Below, one piece after another: positions 32,188-59,730 of a stretch of 64,000 nucleotides of DNA. The stretch's first letter is position 1. Every line of letters starts with the position of its first letter. The position numbers and the translations under genes are program-made. The notes under the pieces are model-generated. The model searched no databases. It was not told where the DNA came from and worked only from the letters and a program-made list of their open reading frames with translations. Origin of the DNA: Clostridia bacterium. GTDB taxonomy: Bacteria; Bacillota; Clostridia; UMGS1883; UMGS1540. The stretch lies in NCBI GenBank assembly GCA_045590195.1, contig JAZNQN010000044.1, positions 19,186 to 83,185 of the forward strand, read 5' to 3'.

Positions 32188-32634
32188 ATGATTAAATTTG
32201 ATATTAACATTAAAAAGCTTGATGCGCGAGCACAAATTCCTACATATGGTTCGCCTTTCGCAGCCGGAGCTGATCTTTATGCCCTTTGCGACAGTGAGGT
32301 TGAAATTGCTCCCCACACAACTATTTTAATTCACACAGGCATTTCAATGGAAATTCCTGAAGGTTATGGCGGATTTATTTTTGCAAGAAGCGGCCTTGCT
32401 TCAAAAAGAAATCTTGCGCCGGCAAATAAAGTTGGTGTTGTAGATTCAGATTACAGAGGCGAAGTAATGGTTGCACTTCATAACCACGGCGAAATTCCAC
32501 AAGTGATTTCAAACGGCGAGAGAATTGCACAGCTTTGCATTATGCCTTATGCGGCTGCAAACTTTGTAGAATGCGAAACACTTTCTGATACAGTTCGTGG
32601 CGCAGGTGGCTTTGGCACAACAGGAACAAAATAA
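32188..32634 (+). CDS. dut: dUTP diphosphatase
   Basis: dUTPase motifs 'AAGADL', 'ARSGLA', 'VVDSDYRGEV', 'GERIAQL', C-terminal 'RGAGGFGTTG'. Confidence 0.85.
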   Translation: MIKFDINIKKLDARAQIPTYGSPFAAGADLYALCDSEVEIAPHTTILIHTGISMEIPEGYGGFIFARSGLASKRNLAPANKVGVVDSDYRGEVMVALHNHGEIPQVISNGERIAQLCIMPYAAANFVECETLSDTVRGAGGFGTTGTK

Positions 32635-32662
32635 AAAAGATGGCTAAGCCATCTTTTTTATT
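32631..32662. terminator. Bidirectional terminator between dut (+) and eno (-)
   Basis: agatggct-aa-gccatct hairpin flanked by A-run and T-run. Confidence 0.7.
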
Positions 32663-33899
32663 TTTCGTGAAAATTACTTTCTATTTCCAGAAGTTTGTTA
32701 TATTTTGAATTTCTCTCACTTCGGCAAGGAGCCCCTGTTTTAATCTGTCCTGCATTTGTGCCAACTGCAAGGTCGGCAATAAAACTGTCTTCCGTTTCCC
32801 CGCTTCTGTGTGAAATAACTGTACCATAACCATTTTCCTTTGCAAGATGTATTGCCTGCAAGGTTTCGGTAACTGTTCCTATCTGATTTGGCTTTATAAG
32901 AATTGAATTTGCAATTTTTTTATCAATTCCCTTTTGAAGTCTTTTTGTGTTAGTAACAAACAAATCATCGCCAACAAGTTGTATTTTCTTCGAAAGTTTT
33001 TTTGTTAAATGGTCCCACGTTTCCATATCATCTTCTGCCGCTCCATCTTCAATTGACAAAATCGGGTAACATTCAATAAGATGCTCGTAATATGTGCAAA
33101 GCTCTTCCCCTGTCATGACAGTTCCTTTTTTCGGCATTTTGTACATTCCGTTTTCATACCACTCACTACTTGCAACGTCAAGGGCAATTTTTATATCATC
33201 ATAAAGCTTATATCCTGCTTTTTCGGTTGCTCGCATTATAAGTTCAATTGCCTCTTCCTCGCTATCTAAATCAGGTGCAAATCCGCCTTCATCTCCAACG
33301 CCCGTAGAATACCCCTGAGAGGATAAAAGCTTTTTAAGAGTATGATAAATCTCGCTACACATTTTAATTCCTACAGCAAAGGATTTGGCACTTACAGGCA
33401 TAATCATAAACTCCTGAATGTCTATATTATTATCTGCGTGTGCTCCGCCATTTAAAATATTCATCATAGGCAGCGGCATCATATAAGCATTTATTCCACC
33501 AATGTATTTGTGAAAAGGCACGCCAACGCACTTTGCCGCAAGGCGTGCATTGGCAATTGATACTGCCAAAATTGCATTAGCACCAAGATTTGATTTGTTT
33601 TCAGTTCCGTCTGCTTCAAGCATTATCCTGTCGATTTTTTCCTGTTCAAGGCAGCACTTTCCTAAGAGTGCATCTTTTATTGTGTTTTCAACATTACAAA
33701 CCGCCTTTAAAACGCCTTTACCATTAAAGCGACTGCTATCATCGTCACGAAGTTCAACCGCTTCGTGCACTCCTGTTGATGCACCTGATGGCACAGAAGC
33801 TTTTGCACTTTTGCCGCAAGAAGAAAAAATTTCTGCTTCAATTGTTGGGTTTCCTCTTGAGTCGAGTATTTCATAAGCTTTTATGTTTTTAATAATCAT
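32658..33899 (-). CDS. eno: Enolase (phosphopyruvate hydratase)
   Basis: '[13 protein letters not shown]' N-terminus and '[17 protein letters not shown]' active-site motif. Confidence 0.9.
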
Positions 33900-33987: not shown

Positions 33988-35214
33988 TTAGAACAATATT
34001 ATCAAAAACTGTGACACAAGCACAACTGCAATAAGTGCAATAGGATAAGTTGCCGCATAAGCTGATGCAACATCTTCAGTTCCTGAAACATTTATAAGTG
34101 TTCCAAGGGCCGGAGTTGATGTCATACCACCGCAAATTGAGCCAAGAGCATTGAGAAGATTAAGCTTTAGTACATATCTTGCAAAAAGATATCCAAGTAT
34201 CATTGGCAAAATTGTCATAACAGCGCCATATACAAAGTAAACCGGCTGGAAATTCTCAACAAATTTTGCTCCGCCTGCAACACCTGCACCGATTAAGAAA
34301 AGCATAAGGCCAAGCTCGCGGAAAACTTTAAGAGTTGGCTGTGGAGGCATAATGCTTACCATACCAACCTTTCCGAAGTGACCAAAAACAAGTGCCGCAA
34401 GAAGGCATCCGCCCGTTGTTGTAAGCGAAAAAGTTGTTCCCGAAAGGCCACTTGAAGAAAGCGGAATTTTAACCATTCCAATAATAATACCAATAACTGC
34501 CGCAATTGCGAAAGCGCATATACCAAATGAATCAAGCTCTAAAAGATTTTTGGAAACCTCTTTTTTCTCAGCTTTTTCAGCGGCAACAAGCTTTTCTCTT
34601 TCCTTTGCCATATCAGCGTTAACAATCTTTGGAACAAGCTGAACAAAAAGCACAACGCCGATTACACCAAAAATATATGCAATACCATTACCAACAGCAA
34701 CTATATCTTCATACATTTCTCCAACAGTTGCTTTTGCGGCTGAAAATGCCGGTGTTGAAGTAAGTGCGCCTGAGAGAAGCCCTGCAACCATAGCAGTAAA
34801 CTTTTCTGTGTTGGTTTCTCCAAGTGCTCTGCCAATGAGAATACAAATTACAGCCGAAATTCCCCCTGCAATTATAATTATAAGGCCAAGCATAACATAA
34901 GATTTAAAATTCTTTTTCATATTGCTGAAAAATTTTGGTCCGGCAATAAATCCAACGGATGTTACAAAAAGAATAAGGCCTATATTTTCAACAATTTTAA
35001 GTGCATCTTTTGTAAAATCGCCAAGCTGTGCCTGCAGAGTTTTATAAAAAAGGCAACCAAAAACCAATGCAGCAATAAATACGCCTGCAGTACCCAGCGA
35101 TACACCTTTTATTGTTATACGGCCGAGAAGGTAGCCTGCTGCTGAAATAATAAGTACTGAAAAAACTAGAAATGTAATTCCTGTTATGGGGATAACTCCA
35201 CCAAATAAACTCAT
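33988..35214 (-). CDS. Asp-Al_Ex (YidE/YbjL/AspT-like) duplicated-repeat transporter without TrkA-C domains; putative C4-dicarboxylate/succinate transporter
   Basis: Two homologous halves each with the 'G..LG....G.F.AL.FG' (Asp-Al_Ex) motif. ATG (MSLFGG) with AAGAGGT RBS chosen over the upstream ORF-track start. Confidence 0.55.
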   Translation of the reverse strand: MSLFGGVIPITGITFLVFSVLIISAAGYLLGRITIKGVSLGTAGVFIAALVFGCLFYKTLQAQLGDFTKDALKIVENIGLILFVTSVGFIAGPKFFSNMKKNFKSYVMLGLIIIIAGGISAVICILIGRALGETNTEKFTAMVAGLLSGALTSTPAFSAAKATVGEMYEDIVAVGNGIAYIFGVIGVVLFVQLVPKIVNADMAKEREKLVAAEKAEKKEVSKNLLELDSFGICAFAIAAVIGIIIGMVKIPLSSSGLSGTTFSLTTTGGCLLAALVFGHFGKVGMVSIMPPQPTLKVFRELGLMLFLIGAGVAGGAKFVENFQPVYFVYGAVMTILPMILGYLFARYVLKLNLLNALGSICGGMTSTPALGTLINVSGTEDVASAYAATYPIALIAVVLVSQFLIILF

Positions 35215-35254
35215 TTTTAAAGACCTCTTTTCAAGTAAAATACACACAAATGCT

Positions 35255-35304
35255 ATAATGAATCTGTACCGATTCATTATAGCATAACTTCAATTATTTT
35301 ACAA
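35255..35304 (-). promoter_or_regulatory. Internal promoter (TTGTAA-17-TATAAT) for the transporter gene, overlapped by a perfect 10-bp-arm palindrome ATAATGAATC-tgtacc-GATTCATTAT (candidate operator)
   Basis: Read directly. The -10 hexamer overlaps one palindrome arm; the element sits between the frdA stop (35308) and the transporter RBS. Confidence 0.45.
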
Positions 35305-35307
35305 GTA

Positions 35308-36915
35308 TCAAATACCACTTTTCTGACCTGTGTAGTTTGGAAGAAGTTTAGGAGAAACCATATCGCCTGCAATGCCCGCCGCTTCTCTTTCAGCTTCAAA
35401 CGCAGCAATATGCTGGAGTGTAAGCTTGCCAACTTTAACATTTTTGCATTTAGCCGCCGCATTTTGACCTGCGTTTCTGCCAAATACAATAATATCTAAA
35501 AGTGAGTTACCCATAAGGCGGTTTCTGCCGTGAATTCCGCCAACAGCTTCGCCTGCAACATAAAGGTTTTCTACATTTGTTGTAGAACCATCAACATTTA
35601 TGTCAAGACCACCATTCTGATAGTGAAGTGTTGGGTAAACCAAAATTGGCTCCTTGCGGATATCAATTCCGTACTGACCAAACATTCTCATCATAGCAGG
35701 AATTCTTTTTTCAATTGTTCCCTCTCCACCTATTTTTTCAATCATAGGAGTATCAAGCCAAACACCAAGGCCGTTTCCTGTTTCAACGCCGTTGCCTCTG
35801 TCATTACATTCTCTGATAATAGAAGCCGCCGCAACGTCACGTGTTTCGAGAGGATGCATAAACACTTCGCCTTTTGAGTTTATAAGTTTGGCACCAAGTG
35901 AACGAACTTTTTCAGTAACAAGTGCACCGAAAATCTGCTGAGGATATGCAGCACCGGTTGGGTGATACTGCAAAGTTTCAGCATAAAGAAGCTTAGCCCC
36001 TACTCTGTAACCTAAAACAAGACCATCGGCAGTTGCGCCATAGTGATTCGATGTTGGGAAACCCTGATAATGCATTCTTCCTGCACCACCTGTTGCAATT
36101 ATGACAGTTTTAGCACGTGCAACCATAAGTTTTTCAGTTTCCATATTAAGGAGCACCGCACCTGCCGCGTTTCCGTTTTCATCAAGAATAATTTCGATTG
36201 CAGCTGTAAAATCAACAACAGGAATCTGTCTGTTTAAAACTTCATCTCGGAGTGTACGCATAATTTCAGCACCTGAATAGTCACGTGCAGCATGCATTCT
36301 CTTTCTTGATGTACCACCACCGTGAGTTGTAATCATTGTGCCATCTTCAGCTTTATCAAACTCAACGCCAAGGTTTGAAAGCCACCAAATAGCCTCAGGT
36401 GCATCGCAAACAAGTTTTGATAAAAGCTCGCGTTTAGCTGCAAAATGTCCGCCGCCAAAAGCATCAACAAAGTGAATTGCAGGGGAATCGTTTGGTTTGT
36501 CAGCCGCCTGAATACCACCTTCTGCCATCATTGTGTTGGCATCGCCAATACGAAGCTTTGTTACAATCATAACATCAGCCCCTGCCTCGTGAGCTTCGAT
36601 TGCGGCAGAAGAACCCGCTCCACCACCGCCAATTACAAGAACATCTACATCGTAGTCGGGTGCATCAAGGTTTACGTCTTCTGCTTTAATACGGCTTTTT
36701 GCCTCTAAAATTTCACAAAGCTCTTTTGGAACACACTGGCCTTTGTTAGGACCTATTTTAAGCTCAGAAAATTCGTCTTTTTTATAATCGGGATGATATG
36801 CCGCAAGCAAATCTTCTTTCTGTTTTGCAGTCATTCTGTCGGGCTCGTATGCAATATTTTTATCTCTCGCCGCCTCAACAGCTTTTATTGATTTTGTTAA
36901 TTCTTCTGAATACAT
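35308..36915 (-). CDS. Soluble fumarate reductase / succinate dehydrogenase flavoprotein subunit (TfrA/FrdA-like, non-covalent FAD)
   Basis: Rossmann 'VLVIGGGGAGSSAAIEA' with FAD-binding and fumarate-reductase catalytic-domain organisation. The position of the covalent-FAD histidine reads 'GDANTMMAEGG', with no His. 'HPTGA' motif present. Confidence 0.7.
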   Translation of the reverse strand: MYSEELTKSIKAVEAARDKNIAYEPDRMTAKQKEDLLAAYHPDYKKDEFSELKIGPNKGQCVPKELCEILEAKSRIKAEDVNLDAPDYDVDVLVIGGGGAGSSAAIEAHEAGADVMIVTKLRIGDANTMMAEGGIQAADKPNDSPAIHFVDAFGGGHFAAKRELLSKLVCDAPEAIWWLSNLGVEFDKAEDGTMITTHGGGTSRKRMHAARDYSGAEIMRTLRDEVLNRQIPVVDFTAAIEIILDENGNAAGAVLLNMETEKLMVARAKTVIIATGGAGRMHYQGFPTSNHYGATADGLVLGYRVGAKLLYAETLQYHPTGAAYPQQIFGALVTEKVRSLGAKLINSKGEVFMHPLETRDVAAASIIRECNDRGNGVETGNGLGVWLDTPMIEKIGGEGTIEKRIPAMMRMFGQYGIDIRKEPILVYPTLHYQNGGLDINVDGSTTNVENLYVAGEAVGGIHGRNRLMGNSLLDIIVFGRNAGQNAAAKCKNVKVGKLTLQHIAAFEAEREAAGIAGDMVSPKLLPNYTGQKSGI

Positions 36916-36927
36916 ATTGCGCCCTCC

Positions 36928-37602
36928 TTACTTTTCAATATCACGGTTATTATAAAGTTCTTTAATCTCATCAATTGGCTTTTGCATTAGAGCTTCAATA
37001 AGGTCATTGAAAGTACCATCTTTAATTTCTTTAACCCTTTCATCAAGATGGCCACAACCAGGAGCTAAATATTTACCGTTAAGTCTTCTTGCAAGCATTG
37101 CAACCTGTGGATGAGAAATACCTGCAGGACATCTTGAAGAACAAACGCCGCACATTACGCAGTCAAAAGATTCTTCAGCACATTTTTCATACTCAGCACG
37201 CTGTGCATAAGCAATATACTGCATTACATTAAGCTTCTGAGTACAAGCTTTTGTACAAGCATTACAGCCGATGCAGGAATAAATTTCAGGATAAAGCTGC
37301 ATCATAATCTGCTCAGTAGGTTTTACTTTTTCAATATCATAAATTTCTTTAACAAGCGGGAAGAATGGCAATGTAGCAATGTACATCTTATCTTCAACCT
37401 TTGTCTGACATGCAAGACAAGCTTTAAGTTCTCTGTCGCCCTCTATTCTGTAAATTGTGGCACATGCACCGCAAAAACCATTTCGGCATCCGCAACCACG
37501 TTTAAGCTGATAGCCTGCATATTCCATAGCACGCATAATTGTCATGCTGGCAGGTACTTCATATTTTTTACCGAACAAAAATATATTTACCATTTTTTCC
37601 AT
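36928..37602 (-). CDS. Fumarate reductase / succinate dehydrogenase iron-sulfur subunit (2Fe-2S + two cubane-cluster Cys motifs)
   Basis: N-terminal 2Fe-2S 'CGCRNGFCGACA' then 'CIGCNACTKAC' and 'CVMCGVCSSRCP'. ATG (MEKMVNIF) with GGAGA RBS. Confidence 0.7.
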   Translation of the reverse strand: MEKMVNIFLFGKKYEVPASMTIMRAMEYAGYQLKRGCGCRNGFCGACATIYRIEGDRELKACLACQTKVEDKMYIATLPFFPLVKEIYDIEKVKPTEQIMMQLYPEIYSCIGCNACTKACTQKLNVMQYIAYAQRAEYEKCAEESFDCVMCGVCSSRCPAGISHPQVAMLARRLNGKYLAPGCGHLDERVKEIKDGTFNDLIEALMQKPIDEIKELYNNRDIEK

Positions 37603-37621: not shown

Positions 37622-38452
37622 TTAGTATTCGTCAGGCAGCTCGTCAAGCTGGTCACACCTGAAAACCGGGCCGTCTTTACATACATATTTAGAACCAATG
37701 TTGCATCTGCCGCATTTACCAACGCCGCACTTCATTTTAAGTTCCATAGTAGTATAAATCTGAGTTTTTTCAAAGCCAAGTTCCTGAAGGCCCTGAAGGG
37801 TAAATTTAATCATAATAGGCGGACCACAGATTATTGCTGTTTTATTCGTGTCAAACCCGAGTTCCTTTACATAGTTTGGAACAAAGCCAACATGGCCATC
37901 CCATCCATCCTGAGGGTTATCAATTGTAAGATGAACATTTATTCCTTCATCCTTACACCATTCGTCGATAATTTCTTTATAATCAACAAGGTCGTCCATA
38001 CTTCTTGAGCCGTAAACTATATCAATTTTACCATAGCGGTCACGATAGTGACGGCAGTAGTTGATAACTGAACGAAGCGGTGCAAGGCCGATACCGCCGG
38101 CAATAAAGAGCATATCTTTGCCTGCAAATTCGGTGTCAACAGGGAAAGGATTTCCGTAAGGGCCACGAATTGTAATTTGCTGGCCTACTTCTGCCTGATG
38201 AAGCCACTCGGTAACGCAGCCGCACTTTTTAATGGAAAACTCCATATATTCAGTATTTGTTGGAGAAGAAGTAATTGAAAACATAGCCTCTCCCACTCCG
38301 GGAATTGAAAGCATTGCGCATTGACCCGGTTTATGGTCGAATGCTTTTTTGCCGTCGGGTGTTAAAACGCGGAAGGTTTTAACATCGGGGGTATCAATTC
38401 TTACATCACAAATTGTACCAATTTTTGGAATCAATGGATCTTGATTATTCAT
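37622..38452 (-). CDS. FAD/NAD(P)H-binding oxidoreductase with C-terminal Cys cluster (PyrK/NfnA/AsrB/sulfhydrogenase-gamma/FlxA-like)
   Basis: FNR-like fold 'FRVLTPDGKK..HKPGQCAML', 'LFIAGGIGLAPLRS' and C-terminal 'CGVGKCGRCN'. ATG (MNNQDP) with GGAGGTG RBS. Confidence 0.7.
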   Translation of the reverse strand: MNNQDPLIPKIGTICDVRIDTPDVKTFRVLTPDGKKAFDHKPGQCAMLSIPGVGEAMFSITSSPTNTEYMEFSIKKCGCVTEWLHQAEVGQQITIRGPYGNPFPVDTEFAGKDMLFIAGGIGLAPLRSVINYCRHYRDRYGKIDIVYGSRSMDDLVDYKEIIDEWCKDEGINVHLTIDNPQDGWDGHVGFVPNYVKELGFDTNKTAIICGPPIMIKFTLQGLQELGFEKTQIYTTMELKMKCGVGKCGRCNIGSKYVCKDGPVFRCDQLDELPDEY

Positions 38453-39461
38453 TGTCTGCACCTCCAAGTTCTTTCATAACCTTTACAATATTCATTGAAA
38501 TAGGACACTTTGAAAGGCATCTGCCACAACCAACACATCCGAATATTCCATCGTTATTTTCAGGGAAGTATACAAGTTTGTGCATAAATCTCTGACGGAA
38601 ACGTTCTTTCTGAGAATTACGGGAGTTGCCGTGAGCCATTTTAGTAAAATCGGAATACATACACGAATCCCAGCAACGAAAACGTTGAACACCATTTCCT
38701 GTGTTAAAATCTTTAATGTCATAGCACTGACAGGTTGGGCATACAAAAGTACAGGTTCCACAGCCAAGGCAGCTTTCAGAAAGTTCTTCCCATTTTGGGC
38801 TTTCAAAATACTTTTCTGTTTTACCTCCACCAAAAGCATCAGTTTTTAAATTTTTAAGTGGAAGTTTTTCAATGTAAGTGCGAATTTTTGCTTTTTCTTC
38901 ATCTGCGGCTACAGTATCGCACTCCTGGCCAATCCCTTCAAGAAGAGCAGTTCCTTTTTCAGTTTTTGCGTCGATATAAACCACATCATCAACAATTGTG
39001 CATTCAACATCTCCACCGGGTGCAGAAGCATCAATACCAAAAGCAGCACAAAAACAAGTTTCTTCAGGGCGCGAGCAAGCAACAGTTATTATAGTTGCTC
39101 CCTCTCTTCTTTTCTGATAGAATGTGTCAACAGGTTCTGAGAGAAAAACTCTGTCAAGAATTTCAAAGCTTTTAAGATCGCAGGCGCGAACACCAAAAAT
39201 CGCAAAATTACCAATATCTTCACGAATATCGATAACTTCTATATTTTTGCCTTCTGTTTTAAAGTGCATCATATTTTCAACCTGAGGAAAGAAAAAGTCT
39301 TTCGCGCTCCTGGTTGTGTTAAGTTTTTTGGAATATTCTATTCCTTCTTCCCATTTTTTAAATGAAGCACCTTCTTTTCCGTCAGCCGGGAGATAAAGTG
39401 GCATTTTATCGGCAACGGCCTTGAAAAAATCGCAAATGTTAATTTTACGCATTTTCGCCAT
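38445..39461 (-). CDS. 4Fe-4S cluster protein (AsrA / sulfhydrogenase-beta / FlxB/C-like)
   Basis: 'CLGCGTCTFVCPTCQCYD' and 'CVGCGRCLSKCP' ferredoxin motifs; ~338 aa as in AsrA. Confidence 0.65.
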   Translation of the reverse strand: MAKMRKINICDFFKAVADKMPLYLPADGKEGASFKKWEEGIEYSKKLNTTRSAKDFFFPQVENMMHFKTEGKNIEVIDIREDIGNFAIFGVRACDLKSFEILDRVFLSEPVDTFYQKRREGATIITVACSRPEETCFCAAFGIDASAPGGDVECTIVDDVVYIDAKTEKGTALLEGIGQECDTVAADEEKAKIRTYIEKLPLKNLKTDAFGGGKTEKYFESPKWEELSESCLGCGTCTFVCPTCQCYDIKDFNTGNGVQRFRCWDSCMYSDFTKMAHGNSRNSQKERFRQRFMHKLVYFPENNDGIFGCVGCGRCLSKCPISMNIVKVMKELGGADNE

Positions 39462-40437
39462 CTCCTTTCTCCACAGCCTCGGAAGGCTCTAAATCTTCTG
39501 TAGTGTAGTTTACAAGCGGAGCACGAAGGCCTACTTCTTCCCCTGCCTGATACTCACCATAGAAAGAGTTTATATCTTTTATAAACTTACGGTTTAAAAG
39601 ATGAAGTGGAATGTTTTGCGGACAAACTCTTGAACATTCGCCGCAATCTGTACATCTTCCGGCAACGTGAAAAGCTCTTATAATGTGAAACATTTTTTCT
39701 TCAAAGCTATCTGCTGCGGCTTTGTTTTCCACGCCTGATTTAGGATTGCCAAATACGCACTGTTCACAAGTACAAGCGGGACAGACATCGCGGCAGGCAT
39801 TACATCTTATACATCTTGAAAGCTCGCCCTGCCAGAAAGCAAATCTTTCATCGGCAGACATTTTTTCAAGGCGCTTAACTTCATCAAAGCGGTTAGAATC
39901 AATAATTTCGCCTTCGTCGCCAATAAGTTCATCGTATGCAACATGCTTGCGGCTTTTGCAAGAGATGCATCTTTCAGCTAAAACATCAGCTTTATTAAAT
40001 ACTTTTTCATCGCCATAAATTGATTTTACCAAAATTTCATCGCCGTTTTCCAAAATTTCAGAAACAGCAGAAATTTCAGCTTTAATTTTTGAAACATCAG
40101 TCATTCCATCGCAGGGAATTCCAACGGCATAAACTTTTTCGCGGTCTATGCGGTGTTCAGTTAAAAGCTGATTAAAACTGTATGTGTCACATGGTTTCAA
40201 GAAAACCAGCACTTTTCCATCTTTCTGGCATTCTTTTACTAGATATTTTGAAAAGTTTGCACCACAAAAAGCATTGTAAACAAAATCTTTTTTAAGAGAT
40301 TCGGCATCTTTAAACACACCGGGGGTTACATCGTATGAAAACTCGCCCTCTTTCCAGCCTAAAACTCTGTCAACCTTTCCGCTTTCAAGGAGGTTTAATG
40401 CTTTATCTATAAGAATATCACGATTTATTGTTTGCAT
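39445..40437 (-). CDS. FrhB/FdhB-like flavoprotein (coenzyme F420 hydrogenase/dehydrogenase beta-subunit family) with 4Fe-4S motifs
   Basis: N-terminal FrhB_FdhB_N-like region and C-terminal 'CIRCNACRDVCPACTCEQC' / 'CTDCGECSRVCP' clusters. Confidence 0.55.
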   Translation of the reverse strand: MQTINRDILIDKALNLLESGKVDRVLGWKEGEFSYDVTPGVFKDAESLKKDFVYNAFCGANFSKYLVKECQKDGKVLVFLKPCDTYSFNQLLTEHRIDREKVYAVGIPCDGMTDVSKIKAEISAVSEILENGDEILVKSIYGDEKVFNKADVLAERCISCKSRKHVAYDELIGDEGEIIDSNRFDEVKRLEKMSADERFAFWQGELSRCIRCNACRDVCPACTCEQCVFGNPKSGVENKAAADSFEEKMFHIIRAFHVAGRCTDCGECSRVCPQNIPLHLLNRKFIKDINSFYGEYQAGEEVGLRAPLVNYTTEDLEPSEAVEKGDGENA

Positions 40438-40859
40438 CTTAAATCCTCCAATCTTTTGTTTTCGCCAAGAGCAGCAACTGCTTCGGCAAATTCATTCATT
40501 GTTTGCGCAAATTTTGCGCCTTCAGCCGCAGAAACCCATTCAACACGGGTTCTTTCTTTTTCAATACCGAGAAAATCGAGCATTGAGAAAAGAAGCGACA
40601 TTCTTCTTCTTGTATAGTAGTTACCAGAAGTATAATGGCAGTCGCCAGGGTGGCAACCACAGATTATAACCCCGTCTGCTCCACGCTGAAATGCTCTTAA
40701 AATAAACATTGGGTTTACCCTACAAGAGCATGGAACACGAATTATTTTAACTTCGGCAGGGTAACTGAGTCGGTTATTACCTGCAAGGTCGGCACCGGCA
40801 TAAGAACACCAGTTACAGCAAAATGCCACTATTAAAGGTTTTTTCTCTTCTATTTGCAT
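40425..40859 (-). CDS. mvhD: MvhD/FlpD-family hydrogenase iron-sulfur subunit (FlxD-like)
   Basis: 'IVAFCCNWCSYAGADLAG...IIRVPCSCRVNP...GADGVIICGCHPGDCHYTSGN' matches the MvhD Cys pattern. Confidence 0.8.
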   Translation of the reverse strand: MQIEEKKPLIVAFCCNWCSYAGADLAGNNRLSYPAEVKIIRVPCSCRVNPMFILRAFQRGADGVIICGCHPGDCHYTSGNYYTRRRMSLLFSMLDFLGIEKERTRVEWVSAAEGAKFAQTMNEFAEAVAALGENKRLEDLRCKQ

Positions 40860-42844
40860 ATTGCATCCACCTCCGCTAAAATTTGTGCATTTTTAAAGCC
40901 TTTTAAATCCATTGCACCTGATGGACAGGCAACTGTACAAGCACCGCAGCCCTGACAAACAGCTTCATTAACCTGAGCTACGCGGCGCATTTTTGTTGTT
41001 CTGTTTGGCATACGGAACTCTTTAACTACATAAGTTATTGCACCATATGGGCAAACTCTTTCGCAACTACTGCATCCGTTACACATCATTTCGTCTGATG
41101 CGGCAATACAAGGATTACCAAGAAGTTTATCTTTGCATAAAAGGCCGATAACCTTTGAAGCCGCCGCTCCCGCCTGGGAAACAGTTTCAGGAATATCTTT
41201 CGGGCCTTGACAAGCACCTGACAAAAATACGCCTGCGGTTGGGCTTTCAACCGGACGAAGCTTTGGATGAGCCTCGGTAAAGAAATCGTTTGTATCCATA
41301 CTTGCAGTGAGCATTGTTGCAAGAGGACGAGCTGATTTATCAGGCTCGATTGCGGCTGCTAAAACAACCAAATCTGCATCAATGTTAATCTGTTTATTTG
41401 AAATTAAATCGCTTGCACGCACTTTAAGCTTATCGCCTTCAGGCATAATTTTGCCAACCATACCTTTAATGTAGTGAACACCAAATTCCTCGGTTGCTCT
41501 TCTGTAAAATTCGTCAAAGTTTTTACCGGGAGTTCTGACATCGATGTAGAATACTGTTACGTCAGTATCCGGATATTTATCACGAGTGAGCATTGCGTGT
41601 TTCGCTGTGTACATACAACAAATTTTAGAACAGTATTCCTTACCTTTTTCATTGCATGCATCGCATCTTGAACCTACGCACTGAACGAAAACGATTTTTT
41701 CAGGATGTTTTCCGTCTGAAGGGCGTAAGAGTTTACCTGCTGTTGGGCCTGCCGCATTGGTAAGACGCTCAAATTCGAGAGAAGTTATAACATCTTTCGA
41801 CTGGTTATAAGCATACTCATCAAATTTTTCCATACTGATAGGATTAAAGCCTGTTGCAACAACAATTGCACCATATTTTTCTTCTATAATTTCATCCTGT
41901 TGCTTATAATTGATAGCTCCTGCTGCACAAACCTTTTCACAAAGGCCGCACTTGCCATTTTTAAGCATATTACAGTAATCAGCATCAATTGTTGCAACCT
42001 TTGGAACTGCCTGAGCAAAAGGAATATAAACCGCTCTTCTCATATCCATTCCAAGGTTAAATTCATTAGGAACTTTCTTTTGAGGACATTTTTCTGTACA
42101 AAGGCCGCAACCTGTACATTTAGTTTCGTCAACAAATCTTGCTTTTTTCTTAATTTTTACATCAAAATTTCCTACAAAACCGGAAACTGCTTCAACTTCG
42201 CTATAGGAAAAAATTCTTATTTTATCGTTCTGTGCAACATCAACCATTTTTGGAGTTAAAATACAAGCCGCACAGTCAAGTGTTGGGAAGGTTTTATCAA
42301 TCTGCGCCATCTTGCCGCCGATTGTAGGATTTTTTTCAACTATATCTACCGGGAAACCTGCATCGGCAATATCAAGAGCTGTTTGAATACCTGCAATACC
42401 GCCACCGATAACCAAAGCACGCTTTGTAACAGGGCTTTCGCCAGGTGTAAGCGGAGCGTTAAGGTTAACCTTTGCAACAGCCGCTTTGCCCAAAATAATT
42501 GCTTTTTCAGTTCCTGTAGGGATATCTTTATGAACCCATGAGCACTGCTCACGAATGTTTGCAATTTCAACCATATAAGGGTTAATCCCTGCACTTTCAG
42601 CGGTTTTTCTGAAAGTATTCTCGTGCATACGGGGTGAACAGGAACAAATAACTATACCGGTAAGATTATGCTCTTTAATAGCATCTTTAATCATTTCCTG
42701 TCCCGCTTGGGAACACATATACTGATAGTTAGTGGAGAAAACAACACCAGGCTCTTTTTTCAAGGCTTCGCTAACTGCTTCAACATCAACAGTTGCCGCA
42801 ATATTGCTTCCGCACCAACATACGAATACACCAATTCTTTGCAT
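40850..42844 (-). CDS. hdrA: Heterodisulfide reductase subunit A (HdrA-like FAD/Fe-S flavoprotein)
   Basis: N-terminal 'CWCGSN' cluster, Rossmann 'ALVIGGGIAGIQTALDIA', inserted ferredoxin domain, 'CVGSRCDACNEKGKEYCSKICC' motif, C-terminal 4Fe-4S motifs. Confidence 0.85.
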   Translation of the reverse strand: MQRIGVFVCWCGSNIAATVDVEAVSEALKKEPGVVFSTNYQYMCSQAGQEMIKDAIKEHNLTGIVICSCSPRMHENTFRKTAESAGINPYMVEIANIREQCSWVHKDIPTGTEKAIILGKAAVAKVNLNAPLTPGESPVTKRALVIGGGIAGIQTALDIADAGFPVDIVEKNPTIGGKMAQIDKTFPTLDCAACILTPKMVDVAQNDKIRIFSYSEVEAVSGFVGNFDVKIKKKARFVDETKCTGCGLCTEKCPQKKVPNEFNLGMDMRRAVYIPFAQAVPKVATIDADYCNMLKNGKCGLCEKVCAAGAINYKQQDEIIEEKYGAIVVATGFNPISMEKFDEYAYNQSKDVITSLEFERLTNAAGPTAGKLLRPSDGKHPEKIVFVQCVGSRCDACNEKGKEYCSKICCMYTAKHAMLTRDKYPDTDVTVFYIDVRTPGKNFDEFYRRATEEFGVHYIKGMVGKIMPEGDKLKVRASDLISNKQINIDADLVVLAAAIEPDKSARPLATMLTASMDTNDFFTEAHPKLRPVESPTAGVFLSGACQGPKDIPETVSQAGAAASKVIGLLCKDKLLGNPCIAASDEMMCNGCSSCERVCPYGAITYVVKEFRMPNRTTKMRRVAQVNEAVCQGCGACTVACPSGAMDLKGFKNAQILAEVDAICK

Positions 42845-42858: not shown

Positions 42859-43251
42859 CTATTTACTATATTTTCTCATTGCACTTACAATTGCCTGTTG
42901 TGGCAACTGTTCATCTAAAAGTGAAGGTATTGCATCAGCTTTAAGATGATTTTCGCCCTGCTGACGTACTTTTAAAAGCCTTACTGCTTCAATAAGTTTT
43001 GCCGGCTCTACGCCTCTGGGACAACGCTCAACACAGGCAAAACAAGAAAGACATTTGAAAATTGAAGGCGACTCCATAAGTTTATCAACATCACCGTTTT
43101 CAACCATATAAACAAACTGATGAGGATGATATTCCATTTCATCATAAGAAGGACATGTACCTGTGCATTTGCCGCATTTCATACATTTTTTAGGATTAAC
43201 ACCGCTGATGCGCAAAATTTCGTTTGAAAGCTCTGTTTTATTCATTTGCAC
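42859..43251 (-). CDS. hdrC: Heterodisulfide reductase subunit C (HdrC, 2x[4Fe-4S])
   Basis: 'CMKCGKCTGTCP' and 'CLSCFACVERCP'. Confidence 0.8.
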   Translation of the reverse strand: MQMNKTELSNEILRISGVNPKKCMKCGKCTGTCPSYDEMEYHPHQFVYMVENGDVDKLMESPSIFKCLSCFACVERCPRGVEPAKLIEAVRLLKVRQQGENHLKADAIPSLLDEQLPQQAIVSAMRKYSK

Positions 43252-44032
43252 AGCCCTCCTTTACGCCAAGCGCCTGTGCTAAAAGCTCGGTAAAATATTT
43301 AATTTCTATACCGTCGGCGTGTTTTTCAAGATTATATTTGCAAAGTGGGCAAGCTGTTACTATCATATCTGCACCCATTTTTTTGGCACTTTCCAAAATA
43401 GCAATACTCTTCTTCTTTGCACTTTCACTATCTTCAAGAGCTATATATCCGCCGCAGCATTCGTTTCTGTATGGCGAAACTATTGCTTCCGCACCCATAG
43501 CTTTTACAAGATTTTCAAGAATCTGCGGATTTTCGCTGTCGTCCATCTGCATAACTTTACCAGGACGAAGCAAAAGACAACCATAATATGGAGCAATTTT
43601 TTTACCCTCAAGAGGATTTGTAACTTTTTTGGCAATTTCTTCAAAGCCAATTTCATCTCTCAAAAGCTCAAGATAATGAATAACCTCTGCATCTCCCTCA
43701 TAAGGCGTATCAAGATTCATATAGTTATTTGCTTTAAAAGCAAAATCGCTATCGTTATTAAACTGATAATTTGTTTGTTTTATTACATTATGGCAGGCAG
43801 CACAAACTGTTACAAGCTTCTGACCTTTTTCTTTTGCCTCTACAAGGGCACGAATTGAGGAAAGCTTTGTTGCAATTTCATCCTTCGAAGTTGTAAAAAC
43901 TCCGCCGCAGCACTGCCAGTTATTTATTTCTTCCAGATTAACCCCTAATGCCGCCGCACTTTCTCTTGCGTATTTATCAAGTTCTTTTGCTTTGGTTTTA
44001 AGAGTACAACCGGGATAATATGAAAAATTCAT
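43238..44032 (-). CDS. hdrB: Heterodisulfide reductase subunit B (HdrB, two CCG domains)
   Basis: 'YYPGCTL', 'CCGG' and 'CAACHN' in repeat 1; 'YYGCLL', 'CCGG' and 'CPLCKYN' in repeat 2. ATG (MNFSYY) with AGGGAG RBS. Confidence 0.8.
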   Translation of the reverse strand: MNFSYYPGCTLKTKAKELDKYARESAAALGVNLEEINNWQCCGGVFTTSKDEIATKLSSIRALVEAKEKGQKLVTVCAACHNVIKQTNYQFNNDSDFAFKANNYMNLDTPYEGDAEVIHYLELLRDEIGFEEIAKKVTNPLEGKKIAPYYGCLLLRPGKVMQMDDSENPQILENLVKAMGAEAIVSPYRNECCGGYIALEDSESAKKKSIAILESAKKMGADMIVTACPLCKYNLEKHADGIEIKYFTELLAQALGVKEGCANE

Positions 44033-44054: not shown

Positions 44055-45431
44055 TTATACCATCTGTTCAGGATGGAACACTTCGTCAAATTTTTCTTCG
44101 GTTAAAAAGCCAAGCTCGATACAAGCCTCTTTAAGAGAAATATTGTCTTTATAAGCTTTTTTAGCTGTTTTAGCCGCATTTTCATAACCGATATAAGGGT
44201 TAAGCGCAGTAACAAGCATAAGTGAATTATGAAGATTATGATGCATTTTTTCGCGGTTTGCCTTAATGCCTACTGCACAGTTTTTGTTAAATGAAACAAT
44301 GGCTTCTGCCATAAGACGTGCCGACTGCAAAAAGTTATATATGCATACAGGCATAAATACATTAAGTTCAAAGTTACCCTGTGAAGCTGCCATAGAAACA
44401 GCAACATCATTACCCATTACCTGAACGGCAACCATTGTTACCGCTTCACACTGAGTTGGGTTAACTTTACCCGGCATAATTGATGAGCCCGGTTCATTTT
44501 CAGGGATGAAAATTTCTCCAAGGCCATCACGAGGACCGCTTGCAAGCCAACGGATATCGTTTGCTATTTTCATCATATCGCAGGCAAGGGCTTTAATTGC
44601 ACCATGTGCAAAAACAAGCTCGTCTTTTGAAGTTAATGCGTGAAATTTATTCTCAGCAGTTACAAATGGTTTTCCTGTTATTTTCGAAACCTCTGCCGCA
44701 ACGCCTTCTGAAAAACCTTTTGGAGCATTAAGTCCTGTTCCAACTGCAGTTCCGCCAAGTGCAAGTTCACAAAGCGGCTTTACGCTTTGCTTCAAAAGCT
44801 CTACATCTTTCTGGAGGCTTGATCTCCAGCCGCTGATTTCCTGGCTGAATTTTATTGGAGTTGCATCCTGAAGATGTGTTCTTCCGCTTTTTACTATATC
44901 TTCGTTTTCTTTTTCAAGGCGTGAAAAAGTATCGATAAGAGTTTGGACAGCAGGAATAAGTTTATCTTCTATCATCAAAACTGCGGAAATATGCATAGCT
45001 GTAGGGAAAGTATCGTTTGACGACTGGCTCATATTAACATCATCATTAGGATGAAGAATACTTTTGCCCGCAATCTGATTTCCACGGTTTGCAATTACTT
45101 CGTTTGCATTCATATTCGACTGAGTGCCGGAGCCCGTTTGCCATACAACAAGAGGAAAATGGCTATTAAGCTTGCCGCTTATAACCTCATCGCAAGCACT
45201 GGAAATTGCCGAAAGTTTTTCTTCAGTCATTTTTTCGGGTTTCAAAGCGTGATTTGCGATTGCTGCAGCTTTTTTCAAAATGCCGAATGCATGTGTAATT
45301 TCACGTGGCATTGTTTCAATATTTACACCGATTTCAAAATTTTCGTGACTTCTCTGGGTTTGAGCCGCCCACAACCTGTCGGCAGGAACTTTAACCTCTC
45401 CCATCGAGTCGTGTTCAATACGATAATCCAT
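44055..45431 (-). CDS. fumC: Fumarate hydratase class II
   Basis: '[15 protein letters not shown]', '[12 protein letters not shown]', '[16 protein letters not shown]' fumarase/aspartase signature. The AQTQRS and SSNDTFPT variants favour FumC over AspA. Confidence 0.8.
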
Positions 45432-45449: not shown

Positions 45450-46406
45450 TTATATATCCATTTGTTTTATAAGTGATTTCAAAGTATCTGCGCTATGGTG
45501 AAGTGCGCGAACCTCTTCATCATTAAGAGGCAAAAGCATTTTTCCACAAGCGCCCTTGTTGTCAACAACATTGAGAAGGCTCAAAGAAACATCATCTATT
45601 CCATATTCGCCGTGAAGCATTGTTGAAACAGTCATAGTAGTATTTATACCGCCGAGAATACATTTACAAATGTGGCAAACAGATACTGAAACAGCGTAGA
45701 ATGTTGCACCTTTTCTTTCAATAACTCTTCCGCCTGATTTGCGAACATAATCCTCAACTTCATCAAAGTCTATACTTGGCAGCTTAAAGCCTTTCTGAGA
45801 AAAATCGCCTACTACCGAAGACTGACCTTCCTGAATAGGAATGTTAGATACATTTGCAATTGACCACGGAACAAAAGAAGAATCACCATGTTCACCAAGA
45901 ACATAGGCGTGAACATTTTTCTGGTTGATTGAGTAATACTCCGAAAGCCTTGCACGAAGGCGGGCGGTATCAAGAATAGTTCCCGAACCTATAATCTGAT
46001 TTTCAGGAAGCCCTGAACATTTAAAGAATGTGTAAGTTAAAATGTCAACAGGATTGCTCACTATAAGGTAAACTGCATTTGGTGCATAGCGAACAATTTC
46101 AGGAATAATCTGTTTAGTAATATTAACATTTGTCTGAGCAAGGTCAAGCCTTGACTGACCTGGCTTTCTTGCAATACCTGAAGTTACTATTACTATATTT
46201 GAGCCTACTGCATCCTGATATGAACCTGCGTAAACTGTTGCTGATGAGCAAAACGGTGTTCCCTGGCGAATGTCAAGTGCTTCGCCAAGTGCTTTTTCCT
46301 GATTAATATCAATAAGCACAATTTCAGATGCCAGCCCCATAACAGTTAAAGTATACGCAATTGTTGAGCCAACACTACCTGTTCCTATTATTGTAATTTT
46401 GTTCAT
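45450..46406 (-). CDS. mdh: Malate dehydrogenase (LDH-like MDH family)
   Basis: 'ITIIGTGSVGS' Rossmann and 'GSGTILDTARLR'. Specificity motif 'GIARKPGQSRLDL' has Arg at the Gln/Arg discriminator, as in MDH. Confidence 0.65.
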   Translation of the reverse strand: MNKITIIGTGSVGSTIAYTLTVMGLASEIVLIDINQEKALGEALDIRQGTPFCSSATVYAGSYQDAVGSNIVIVTSGIARKPGQSRLDLAQTNVNITKQIIPEIVRYAPNAVYLIVSNPVDILTYTFFKCSGLPENQIIGSGTILDTARLRARLSEYYSINQKNVHAYVLGEHGDSSFVPWSIANVSNIPIQEGQSSVVGDFSQKGFKLPSIDFDEVEDYVRKSGGRVIERKGATFYAVSVSVCHICKCILGGINTTMTVSTMLHGEYGIDDVSLSLLNVVDNKGACGKMLLPLNDEEVRALHHSADTLKSLIKQMDI

Positions 46407-47980: not shown

Positions 47981-47990
47981 AATATTCACC

Positions 47991-50838: not shown

Positions 50839-51095
50839 TCCCCTATATTTAATACTTTAAGTATATGTTCCTTAAAAAAGTCATCGAACTTATGTATTGT
50901 AAGTCCTACAAAAACTTCATCGTTTATCTGAACGGTTACGCCTTCGCGATTGCATTTTCCAATGCAAAAGCTTCCGGCAACAGAAACTTTGTCGCCAATA
51001 TTATAATCACTTACTGCTTTTTCAAAAGCATTTGCTATTTCATATGAACCTTTAATATGACAGGAACTGCCAATACAAACTAATACTTTAAGCAA
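50835..51095 (-). CDS. Small thioredoxin-like [2Fe-2S] ferredoxin (paralog 2)
   Basis: 'VCIGSSCHIKGS...GSFCIGKC' four-Cys pattern; TTG start. Paralog of the 51161-51409 gene. Confidence 0.6.
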   Translation of the reverse strand: MLKVLVCIGSSCHIKGSYEIANAFEKAVSDYNIGDKVSVAGSFCIGKCNREGVTVQINDEVFVGLTIHKFDDFFKEHILKVLNIGE

Positions 51096-51107
51096 AAATA
51101 AATCATT

Positions 51108-51152
51108 CCTTTTTGATTTTTTAAAAGGCCGCAGTGCGGTTGCACCGCGGCC
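51108..51152 (-). terminator. Intra-operon GC-rich hairpin terminator/attenuator between the two ferredoxin paralogs
   Basis: ggccgcagtgc-ggtt-gcaccgcggcc (one mismatch) followed on the minus strand by ttttaaaaaatc. Confidence 0.55.
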
Positions 51153-51160
51153 ATATGTTA

Positions 51161-51409: not shown

Positions 51410-51411
51410 TA

Positions 51412-53109: not shown

Positions 53110-53113
53110 TTTC

Positions 53114-55466: not shown

Positions 55467-55488
55467 AGTTTTACTCCTTTGTTTTTAA

Positions 55489-56898: not shown

Positions 56899-56923
56899 TT
56901 TAAATTCCTCCTTCTAAATCAGT

Positions 56924-57958: not shown

Positions 57959-57974
57959 CTTAAAATTATTTAAA

Positions 57975-59711: not shown

Positions 59712-59730
59712 AATTATCTGCTCCCCTCTC

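What the first reader, a model, noticed from the sequence alone, without database searches (positions are those of the whole stretch)
35308..37602. Fumarate-reductase flavoprotein lacks the covalent-FAD histidine and has only a 25-kDa Fe-S partner: soluble TfrAB-type enzyme
The Frd/Sdh flavoprotein position that normally carries the His for 8-alpha-N3-histidyl-FAD reads GDANTMMAEGG here. No hydrophobic anchor subunits are encoded anywhere in the operon. The Fe-S subunit has the 2Fe-2S plus two cubane Cys motifs but no CCG domain, because the CCG domains sit on a separate HdrB. The methanogen TfrB fusion (Fe-S plus CCG) is thus split into two genes here.
Basis: partly seen in the sequence, partly recalled or inferred. 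Interest (0 to 1): 0.6.

Follow-up and report, generated by a model that had tools for sequence, protein, structure and literature searches.

The report
Soluble Hdr-linked fumarate reductase module
These two genes encode the fumarate-reducing end of a membrane-free, 11-gene malate-to-succinate operon that gut Clostridia probably use to pass NADH electrons to fumarate and ferredoxin together; the idea is already published for related bacteria but has not been tested biochemically.

Summary
The 535-aa flavoprotein (36915..35308, minus strand) has Asn127 where E. coli FrdA His44 and SdhA His45 carry covalent FAD. All fumarate-site residues are kept. Its partner (37602..36928) is a 224-aa, 25.5-kDa protein with one 2Fe-2S motif and two complete CxxCxxCxxxC motifs. 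It has no CCG domain, and the operon encodes no membrane anchors.

TfrA is the closest curated model, but the score is 339 bits against a cutoff of 718. The protein lacks the C-terminal domain of TfrA, SdhA and NadB, and it carries a conserved 87-aa N-terminal extension. It falls in its own clade, outside TfrA, SdhA/FrdA and NadB.

The pair is the last module of a tightly packed operon: mdh-fumC-hdrBCA-mvhD-flxCBA-frdBA, followed by an AspT/YidE-type transporter. That order is conserved in every sufficiently long related locus among 80 examined, and at least 588 species genomes hold a close relative. The likely donor is therefore NADH through Flx-Hdr, probably with ferredoxin co-reduction, rather than methanogen thiols.

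The same operon was proposed as a bifurcating fumarate reductase in Pseudoclostridium thermosuccinogenes (2019-2020). A similar proposal exists for tubeworm symbionts. This is a new member of a known but untested kind.

The parts
35308..36915 (-). FrdA-like flavoprotein, 535 aa, 57.5 kDa. It has an 87-aa N-terminal extension, an FAD domain and a capping domain. Asn127 replaces the covalent-FAD His. The Succ_DH_flav_C domain is absent.
   Evidence: Pfam FAD_binding_2 covers residues 91-472. Alignments. AF2 model: pLDDT 89. Foldseek top hit: E. coli FrdA 1kf6_A, TMq 0.70. A GGAGGG SD precedes the ATG.
36928..37602 (-). FrdB-like Fe-S subunit, 224 aa, 25.5 kDa. It has an N-terminal 2Fe-2S domain, two CxxCxxCxxxC motifs and a ~60-aa helical tail with no known relatives. 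It has no CCG domain.
   Evidence: A natural FrdB-FrdA fusion, P0122, is 40% identical over residues 1-221.
37622..38452 (-). FlxA-like NAD(P)H-binding subunit with FAD and a 2Fe-2S cluster (AsrB / HydG-gamma type).
   Evidence: Pfam NAD_binding_1, FAD_binding_6 and DHODB_Fe-S_bind. NCBIfam PRK08345 at 230 bits and AsrB at 199 bits.
38445..39461 (-). FlxB-like Fe-S subunit (sulfhydrogenase beta / AsrA type, Fer4_22).
39445..40437 (-). FlxC-like subunit with two 4Fe-4S motifs.
40425..40859 (-). MvhD/FlxD (FlpD domain).
   Evidence: Pfam FlpD at 188 bits. It matches positions 643-774 of the HdrA2 model.
40850..42844 (-). HdrA, the presumed bifurcating flavoprotein with several 4Fe-4S clusters.
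   Evidence: NCBIfam HdrA2 at 789 bits over positions 1-641. Pfam domains.
42859..43251 (-). HdrC, with two 4Fe-4S motifs.
   Evidence: TIGR03290 at 70 bits. Pfam Fer4_17.
43238..44032 (-). HdrB with two complete CCG motifs (C41C42G..C77xxC80 and C192C193G..C228xxC231). The start is taken at the ATG, 19 codons inside the TTG ORF.
   Evidence: Pfam CCG twice. NCBIfam SdhE at 148 bits and HdrB at 135 bits. Motifs.
44055..45431 (-). Class II fumarate hydratase (FumC).
   Evidence: TIGR00979 at 715 bits, above the cutoff of 665.
45450..46406 (-). LDH-family dehydrogenase with Arg at the Gln102 specificity position, predicted to be a malate dehydrogenase.
33988..35214 (-). AspT/YidE/YbjL (AAE) family transporter with about 10 TM segments, a putative succinate exporter. 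It is present downstream in 52 of the 80 related loci.
   Evidence: Pfam Asp-Al_Ex twice. NCBIfam YidE_YbjL_dupl..

Best explanation
FrdA and FrdB form the cytoplasmic fumarate-reducing head of a multi-subunit, anchor-free enzyme encoded by one operon.

Proposed pathway: Mdh reduces oxaloacetate to malate, and FumC dehydrates malate to fumarate. NADH is oxidised at FlxA. Electrons pass through the FlxB/FlxC clusters and MvhD to the FAD of HdrA. From there one branch goes via HdrC and the two non-cubane clusters of HdrB into the three clusters of FrdB, and then to non-covalently bound FAD in FrdA. FrdA reduces fumarate using the conserved His/Arg site. The other branch probably reduces ferredoxin. 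That would be flavin-based bifurcation: 2 NADH + Fd(ox) + fumarate -> 2 NAD+ + Fd(red) + succinate. Succinate leaves through the AAE transporter.

Shown here: the sequence features, the domain content and the strict synteny. Inferred: the physical complex, NADH as donor, direct HdrB-to-FrdB electron transfer, and bifurcation.

Loss of the His and of the 3Fe-4S site fits a one-way reductase fed by low-potential Fe-S proteins rather than by quinol.
For: Fumarate chemistry. Every substrate and catalytic residue of FrdA/SdhA is kept. The fold matches E. coli FrdA. The genes sit next to fumC and an Arg102 LDH-like Mdh.

Pairing. frdB and frdA are adjacent in the 77 loci (of 80) that hold both, and a natural fusion exists.

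Link to Hdr/Flx. The eleven genes are on one strand with gaps of -17 to +22 nt. The same order appears in every locus with enough flanking DNA: 54 with hdrB and 45 reaching mdh. At least 588 species genomes hold a close relative. A 54%-identical relative keeps hdrA-mvhD-hdrC-hdrB-frdB-frdA but swaps flxABC for a 2-oxoacid:ferredoxin oxidoreductase.

Cluster chemistry. FrdB has a fourth Cys at the 3Fe-4S site, as TfrB does.

Literature. The same gene order (fumarase, 7 Flx-Hdr genes, 2 Frd genes, a putative succinate transporter) was described and proposed to couple succinate formation to ferredoxin reduction in P. thermosuccinogenes (PMC7282089). A Flx-Hdr plus AB-type fumarate reductase complex was proposed for tubeworm symbionts (PMC6315080) and is still called a suggestion in 2026 (PMC13147460).

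Energetics (my arithmetic). With fumarate at +33 mV, NADH at -320 mV and Fd at -420 to -500 mV, the net is about -49 to -33 kJ/mol.

Circumstantial. Hydrogenases and NfnAB lie in the same window.
Against: No biochemistry exists for this enzyme or any close relative. Bifurcation by Flx-Hdr itself rests on genetics and inference.

Canonical HdrB reduces a disulfide, so a thiol/disulfide shuttle between Hdr and Frd is not excluded.

The same FrdBA type also occurs with only a NuoF-like gene, alone, or as a stand-alone fusion. The module therefore does not need Hdr.

The FrdB structure model was poor (pLDDT 52.7), so its SdhB-like fold rests on motif alignment and weak HMM hits.

I could not obtain P. 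thermosuccinogenes sequences. Identity with that operon is inferred from the gene order as described in the paper.
Confidence: 0.62

Rival explanations
1. Plain NADH:fumarate oxidoreductase without bifurcation. The Flx and Hdr subunits act only as an electron wire from NADH to FrdAB, and no ferredoxin is reduced.
For: Relatives of the FrdBA pair sit next to a single NuoF-like NADH module in marine Gammaproteobacteria. This shows the head can work with a simple donor. A soluble five-subunit NADH-dependent FRD is characterised in Hydrogenobacter thermophilus (cited in PMC13147460).
Against: It would waste about 68 kJ/mol. It would also leave seven conserved redox subunits unexplained, including an end-to-end HdrA (789 bits). 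HdrA is known as a bifurcating flavoprotein. Physiology in P. thermosuccinogenes (H2 suppresses succinate formation) was read as ferredoxin coupling.
Confidence: 0.2
2. True thiol:fumarate reductase logic. FrdAB plus HdrB act like TfrAB and oxidise a thiol pair. The resulting disulfide is re-reduced by Flx-HdrA(BC).
For: TfrA is the best curated HMM. FrdB and HdrB are collinear with the two halves of TfrB. Both CCG motifs of HdrB are intact. Flx-Hdr is thought to reduce a DsrC disulfide in Desulfovibrio (Ramos 2015, cited).
Against: The operon encodes no thiol carrier or DsrC-like gene. CoM and CoB are not expected in Clostridia; this is background knowledge and was not tested. One HdrB cannot obviously both reduce and oxidise the same couple. 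The flavoprotein is outside the TfrA clade and scores below half the cutoff.
Confidence: 0.1
3. The flavoprotein is an L-aspartate oxidase (NadB) or another non-fumarate enzyme of the FAD_binding_2 family.
For: NadB also lacks the covalent His and shares all the active-site residues. The nadB HMM scores 265 bits.
Against: That score is below the nadB cutoff of 452.75. The NadB clade is separate with 100% bootstrap. NadB has the C-terminal domain and no Fe-S partner. The context here is fumC, mdh and an Fe-S subunit, with no nadA or nadC.
Confidence: 0.03
4. The complex runs in reverse, as a confurcating succinate dehydrogenase: succinate + reduced Fd -> 2 NADH.
For: Hdr-type complexes can be reversible. 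Syntrophs need ways to oxidise succinate.
Against: The mean potential of succinate (+33 mV) and Fd (about -450 mV) lies well above that of NAD+ (-320 mV), so the reaction is strongly endergonic (my arithmetic). Loss of covalent FAD abolishes succinate oxidation in E. coli FrdA His44 mutants (Blaut et al. 1989, from memory). The mdh-fumC-exporter context and the fermentative gut hosts point to the reductive branch.
Confidence: 0.03

Closest known systems
The 'succinate operon' of Pseudoclostridium thermosuccinogenes (Koendjbiharie & van Kranenburg 2019 preprint; BMC Microbiol 2020, PMC7282089)
   Same: As described, the gene order is the same: fumarate hydratase, seven Flx-Hdr genes, two fumarate reductase genes, and a putative succinate transporter. 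The host class (Clostridia) and the proposed NADH-to-fumarate-plus-ferredoxin function also match.
   Different: The window adds an LDH-like mdh in front. The host is an uncultured mesophilic gut lineage. I could not make a sequence comparison because the preprint and the sequences are not held.
Thiol:fumarate reductase TfrAB of Methanothermobacter (NCBIfam NF004900 / NF004898)
   Same: It is soluble and has no covalent-FAD His (Gly in P0198). TfrB has a 2Fe-2S cluster and two full 4Fe-4S motifs. It is the best-scoring curated HMM for both FrdA and FrdB.
   Different: TfrA has the C-terminal domain and no N-terminal extension. TfrB carries the CCG domains in the same chain. The donor is CoM-SH + CoB-SH. 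Scores are 339 against 718 and 40 against 385. The clades are separate.
FlxABCD-HdrABC NADH dehydrogenase/heterodisulfide reductase of Desulfovibrio vulgaris (Ramos et al. 2015)
   Same: The seven subunit types are the same: FlxA (FAD/NAD/2Fe-2S), two HydB/AsrA-like Fe-S proteins, MvhD, and HdrA, HdrB and HdrC.
   Different: The gene order is reversed (hdrBCA-flxDCBA). The acceptor there is thought to be the DsrC disulfide. Here an FrdBA module is attached and no DsrC is present.
tfrAB + flxABCD-hdrABC + korABCD rTCA clusters of tubeworm symbionts and Thioflavicoccus mobilis (Rubin-Blum 2019, PMC6315080)
   Same: An AB-type soluble fumarate reductase is co-located with Hdr/Flx. It is proposed to form a bifurcating complex that reduces fumarate and ferredoxin. 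Locus L088 (54% identical FrdA) has kor-hdrA-mvhD-hdrCB-frdBA.
   Different: The context there is autotrophic rTCA, not fermentative succinate production. I did not test whether their TfrA belongs to the same N-extension clade.
Quinol:fumarate reductase / succinate dehydrogenase (E. coli FrdABCD, SdhCDAB)
   Same: The FAD and capping-domain fold is shared (TMq 0.70) and the active site is identical. The partner has the same order of three cluster motifs.
   Different: In those enzymes FAD is covalent via His44/His45. They have a C-terminal domain, a 3Fe-4S cluster, membrane anchors and quinone coupling. All of these are absent here.
Soluble five-subunit NADH-dependent fumarate reductase of Hydrogenobacter thermophilus (Miura et al. 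2008)
   Same: It is a cytoplasmic, NADH-driven, multi-subunit FRD with an SdhA-like catalytic subunit.
   Different: Its genes are scattered and its subunit set differs. No HdrA-type bifurcating flavoprotein is reported (from memory; the paper is not held).

Membership tests
TfrA (fumarate reductase (CoM/CoB) subunit A, NF004900) | Whole-protein HMM score at or above the curated cutoff (718 bits). | tested here: not met
   The score is 338.7 bits and only profile positions 6-413 of 546 are matched. The control P0198 scores 765.4.
TfrA | C-terminal Succ_DH_flav_C domain. | tested here: not met
   Pfam finds none. Only 41 residues follow the FAD domain, against 137 in P0198. TfrA in L089 carries PF02910.
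TfrA | No histidine at the covalent-FAD position. | tested here: met
   The window has Asn127 and the genuine TfrA P0198 has Gly.
TfrA | Groups with TfrA in a phylogeny. | tested here: not met
   In the NJ tree of 56 sequences and 395 columns, the group lacking the C-terminal domain (window clade plus the ~400-aa clade) splits from TfrA+SdhA/FrdA and from NadB with 100% bootstrap. This was NJ only; no ML tree was run.
TfrB (NF004898) | The Fe-S domain and two CCG domains lie in one polypeptide. | tested here: not met
   FrdB is 224 aa with no CCG, and CCG occurs only in the separate HdrB. The TfrB model scores 40 bits against a cutoff of 385.
Quinone-linked complex II flavoprotein (SdhA/FrdA, TIGR01812) | Histidine for 8-alpha-N3-histidyl-FAD. 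| tested here: not met
   Asn127 aligns with FrdA His44 and SdhA His45. It is invariant in the family.
Quinone-linked complex II | Hydrophobic anchor subunit(s) in the operon, and a 3Fe-4S cluster next to the quinone site. | tested here: not met
   There are no TM-like segments and no room between genes. Cys151 completes a 4Fe-4S motif where FrdB has Val.
Quinone-linked complex II | Fumarate/succinate active-site residues (His, Thr-Glu, Arg, Arg proton donor, His, Arg). | tested here: met
   H318, T334, E335, R338, R359, H431 and R466 are invariant with FrdA, SdhA and NadB.
L-aspartate oxidase NadB (TIGR00551) | HMM score at or above 452.75 bits, and placement in the NadB clade. | tested here: not met
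   The score is 265.1 bits. The NadB clade (E. coli NadB, P0233, P0243) is separate with 100% bootstrap.
FlxABCD-HdrABC type complex | All seven subunit types are encoded together: an NAD(P)H/FAD/2Fe-2S subunit, two HydB/AsrA-like Fe-S subunits, MvhD, HdrA, HdrC, and HdrB with two CCG motifs. | tested here: met
   The CCG motifs are intact. The genes are contiguous and overlapping and syntenic across loci.
P. thermosuccinogenes-type succinate operon | Gene order: fumarase, seven Flx-Hdr genes, two Frd genes, transporter. | tested here: met
   The window order matches the published description. Sequence-level identity with that organism could not be tested.
Flavin-based electron-bifurcating enzymes | Obligatory coupling of ferredoxin reduction to reduction of the high-potential acceptor. 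| not testable with these tools
   This needs enzyme assays. Only the HdrA homology, the energetics and the context speak for it.

The most novel reading that the evidence does not exclude
The FrdA/FrdB pair defines an unclassified family of soluble fumarate reductase heads. Its marks are Asn for His, an 87-aa N-terminal extension in place of the C-terminal domain, and an all-4Fe-4S FrdB. Evolution has plugged this head into different electron-input modules: Flx-Hdr in gut Clostridia, Kor-Hdr, a NuoF-like subunit in marine Gammaproteobacteria, and stand-alone or fused forms.

In gut Clostridia it would form a genuinely bifurcating NADH:fumarate/ferredoxin oxidoreductase in which HdrB hands electrons directly to an Fe-S protein instead of to a disulfide. 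That would be a new class of Hdr-based bifurcating enzyme and a widespread, overlooked route to succinate in the gut and rumen.
Probability: 0.45. Interest if true: 0.7.

Novelty: new member of a known kind. Interest (0 to 1): 0.45.

Why it matters
Succinate is a key cross-feeding and signalling metabolite in the gut and rumen. Many Clostridia lack quinones and cytochromes, so how they reduce fumarate and what they gain from it is unclear.

This operon would let them recover part of the large NADH-to-fumarate energy drop as reduced ferredoxin, which can then drive H2 production or Rnf. It is present, at 81-91% identity, in at least 588 species-level genomes. Public annotation calls the two subunits only 'FAD-dependent oxidoreductase' and '4Fe-4S dicluster protein', so metabolic reconstructions will miss it.

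The enzyme has never been purified. A cultured carrier, Yeguia hominis NSJ-40, makes the bifurcation hypothesis directly testable.

Tried and rejected
1. NadB identity was rejected on HMM score, tree position and context.

2. TfrA membership was rejected on score, the missing C-terminal domain and the tree.

3. An AF2 model of FrdB from a shallow alignment (38 sequences, 76-88% identical) gave pLDDT 52.7. I did not use it for a fold search.

5. I tried to model the FrdB-FrdA interface through the natural fusion P0122. MAFFT mis-aligned the FrdB rows (14-19% apparent identity), so I did not submit it.

6. The N-terminal extension of FrdA and the C-terminal tail of FrdB have no Pfam or PDB sequence match even at E <= 10.

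7. The 2019 preprint and Miura 2008 are not in the library.

8. Literature searches for a biochemical characterisation of an Hdr-linked fumarate reductase found only proposals.

9. The promoter and terminator scan gave no counts clearly above shuffled controls.

10. The context of P0164 was uninformative because the contig is only 1.3 kb.
Full report
**What is at the coordinates.** The interval 35308-37602 holds two minus-strand genes.
- frdA (36915..35308) encodes 535 aa, 57.5 kDa.
- frdB (37602..36928) encodes 224 aa, 25.5 kDa.
- Each gene is preceded by a Shine-Dalgarno-like sequence.
- The longer TTG ORF listed for frdB (37722) would overlap flxA. No homologue supports it, since all are 224 aa.

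**Checking the observation: the flavoprotein.**
- PDB phmmer hits are SdhA/FrdA, flavocytochrome c3 and NadB, with E-values from 1e-63 to 1e-38.
- In those alignments, and in a MAFFT alignment with E. coli FrdA, SdhA and NadB, window Asn127 lies under FrdA His44 and SdhA His45. Invariant residues flank it on both sides, so no alternative gap placement would restore a His.
- Asn127 is invariant in 35 family members down to 38% identity.
- The fumarate-site residues H318, T334, E335, R338, R359, H431 and R466 are all conserved.

**Checking the observation: the Fe-S partner and anchors.**
- FrdB aligns with E. coli FrdB so that the four 2Fe-2S cysteines and the first CxxCxxCxxxC motif coincide.
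- The second motif has an extra Cys151 where FrdB has Val. It is therefore a full 4Fe-4S motif instead of a 3Fe-4S motif.
- Pfam finds CCG domains only in HdrB.
- None of the eleven operon products has a transmembrane-like segment, and the genes are 22 nt apart or less, or overlapping.
- All three parts of the observation are therefore confirmed.

- The flavoprotein ends about 40 residues after the FAD domain. It lacks the 120-180-residue C-terminal domain (PF02910) found in FrdA, SdhA, NadB and TfrA.
- It has an 87-residue N-terminal extension instead. This extension is conserved across the family, including distant members.
- AlphaFold models the extension confidently as helices plus a small sheet. 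Mean pLDDT for the whole chain is 89 and pTM is 0.90.
- The extension has no Pfam or PDB sequence relative.
- Foldseek's best match for the whole model is E. coli FrdA (1kf6_A, TMq 0.70, about 450 aligned columns).

**Family placement.**
- NCBIfam ranks TfrA first at 338.7 bits, ahead of sdhA_frdA (279) and nadB (265). All are far below their cutoffs (718, 567 and 453).
- A search of 1.84 billion cluster representatives gave 18,335 relatives.
- I took 56 full-length sequences, including E. coli FrdA, SdhA and NadB. I also included controls validated by NCBIfam: a genuine TfrA (P0198, 765 bits) and two NadB proteins (P0233, P0243).
- The NJ tree has three groups: NadB (100% bootstrap); SdhA/FrdA/TfrA; and a group without the C-terminal domain (100%).
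- The third group holds the window clade, in which every member has the N-terminal extension and Asn. Monophyly of that clade itself has only 57% support. Its sister is a clade of proteins of about 400 aa.
- The protein is thus neither a TfrA nor a NadB. The tree is NJ only.

**The operon.** In transcription order on the minus strand the genes are as follows.
- An LDH-family dehydrogenase with Arg at the Gln102 specificity position, predicted to be a malate dehydrogenase.
- Class II fumarase.
- hdrB, with two intact CCG motifs, then hdrC and hdrA.
- mvhD.
- Two HydB/AsrA-like Fe-S proteins.
- An AsrB/HydG-like FAD/NAD(P)H/2Fe-2S protein.
- frdB and frdA.
- After a 93-nt gap, an AspT/YidE/YbjL-family transporter.

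The middle seven genes are the FlxABCD-HdrABC set.

**Conservation of the operon.**
- A scan of one genome per GTDB species found at least 588 genomes with a close relative (81-87% identity). All listed were Clostridia, mostly gut or rumen MAGs, plus the cultured Yeguia hominis NSJ-40.
- I ran tblastn with the window proteins against the 80 retrieved loci. Every locus with enough flanking DNA showed the same genes in the same order and on the same strand.
- FrdA, FrdB, HdrA, MvhD, FlxA and FumC are the most conserved, at about 85-90% identity.

**Variants elsewhere.** The FrdBA type also occurs in four other settings.
- With korDABC-like genes followed by hdrA-mvhD-hdrC-hdrB, and no flxABC, in a relative whose FrdA is 54% identical.
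- With a single NuoF-like gene in marine Gammaproteobacteria.
- As a bare pair in Prochlorococcus sp. MIT 1201.
- As a single FrdB-FrdA fusion polypeptide.

The fusion supports a physical FrdB-FrdA pair. The variety of partners shows that the head is a portable module.

**Mechanism.** The reactions and electron path are set out under the best explanation. The reasoning behind them is as follows.
- Non-covalent FAD lowers the flavin potential. In E. coli FrdA His44 mutants it removes succinate oxidation while fumarate reduction remains (Blaut et al. 1989, from memory).
- An all-4Fe-4S FrdB suits input from Fe-S proteins, not from quinol.
- FrdB has no CCG domain, so it cannot oxidise thiols as TfrB does. 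The simplest reading is direct electron transfer from HdrC/HdrB to FrdB.
- By my arithmetic, bifurcation yields about -49 kJ/mol under standard conditions and about -33 kJ/mol with Fd at -500 mV.
- The operon structure and the sequence features are shown. The complex, the donor and the bifurcation are inferred.

**Comparison with TfrB.** A genuine archaeal tfrAB locus (L089) lets the 'split TfrB' idea be tested.
- FrdB aligns to TfrB residues 54-205 at 23% identity.
- HdrB aligns to TfrB residues 261-469 at 22% identity.
- HdrC aligns to TfrB residues 132-209 at 28% identity.

The domain analogy holds, but identities are low. HdrB is closer to the HdrB and SdhE models than to TfrB.

**Prior knowledge.**
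- The same operon layout was reported for P. thermosuccinogenes as a 'succinate operon' with a proposed ferredoxin-coupled fumarate reductase (PMC7282089, citing a 2019 preprint).
- A Flx-Hdr plus AB-type fumarate reductase complex was proposed for tubeworm symbionts (PMC6315080).
- A 2026 survey still treats this as a suggestion (PMC13147460).
- I found no biochemical characterisation.

**Verdict.** The 'TfrAB-type' label is a reasonable analogy but not a membership. The real unit is an 11-gene Flx-Hdr-Frd operon that is already described and hypothesised elsewhere. It is widespread, poorly annotated and untested. Interest is moderate.

Noticed in passing
window 45450-46406 (-): The first gene of the operon passes NCBIfam's L-lactate dehydrogenase cutoffs (348 against 339 bits). 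Its substrate-specificity motif reads GIARKPGQSRLDL, with Arg where LDH has Gln102. That is the classic malate dehydrogenase signature, so it is likely to be mis-named LDH by automatic annotation.
   Followed up: partly
window 35250-35304 (-), between frdA and the transporter gene: A promoter-like TTGTAA-17-TATAAT overlaps a perfect 15-bp inverted repeat (ATGCTATAATGAATC...GATTCATTATAGCAT) followed by a T-rich run. It could be a terminator or attenuator after frdA, or an operator for separate control of the transporter.
   Followed up: no
window 46547-62121 (-): A dense redox island lies directly upstream of the operon. It holds a group B monomeric [FeFe] hydrogenase, a SpoIIE/PP2C phosphatase, a HydS-like sensory hydrogenase with a PAS domain, a HydABC-type trimeric hydrogenase set, an NfnAB-like pair and a second HydABC set. 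All of these are ferredoxin/NAD(P)H-handling enzymes.
   Followed up: partly
L090 6001-8697 and L091 6001-8704: The sister clade of ~400-aa flavoproteins has neither the N-terminal extension nor the C-terminal domain. It has Asn or Lys at the His position and Pro instead of the active-site Thr. These genes sit next to class I fumarase subunits plus ComA, or next to a Lyase_1 gene, inside glycan-biosynthesis clusters. Their function is unknown.
   Followed up: partly
L084 / L085 9366-12891: Marine Gammaproteobacteria MAGs carry frdB-like, frdA-like (N-extension type, 45% identical) and a NuoF-like (Complex1_51K) gene as an overlapping trio. This looks like a minimal soluble NADH:fumarate reductase. 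Seen on 82 contigs.
   Followed up: partly
L086 6001-8357 (Prochlorococcus sp. MIT 1201, CP138947.1): A cyanobacterial genome carries the same N-extension FrdA type followed by an FrdB-like gene. No Hdr, Flx or NuoF-like neighbour is present. This is unexpected in an oxygenic phototroph.
   Followed up: no
L088 811-9771: This cluster reads korD/A/B/C-like 2-oxoacid:ferredoxin oxidoreductase, hdrA, mvhD, hdrC, hdrB, frdB, frdA, with no flxABC. It is an Hdr-Frd variant in which ferredoxin from the oxoacid oxidoreductase could be donor or acceptor. It resembles the tubeworm-symbiont rTCA arrangement.
   Followed up: partly
L092 5250-7433 (P0122): A single 727-aa polypeptide fuses FrdB (residues 1-221, 40% identical to window FrdB) to FrdA, starting about 27 residues into the N-terminal extension. 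It stands alone on a 7.7-kb contig with no Hdr or Flx genes nearby. An assembly or gene-call artefact was not excluded.
   Followed up: partly
window 32628-32664: A 17-bp-stem hairpin flanked by A and T runs lies between the convergent enolase (-) and dUTPase-like (+) genes. It looks like a bidirectional terminator closing the minus-strand gene row.
   Followed up: no
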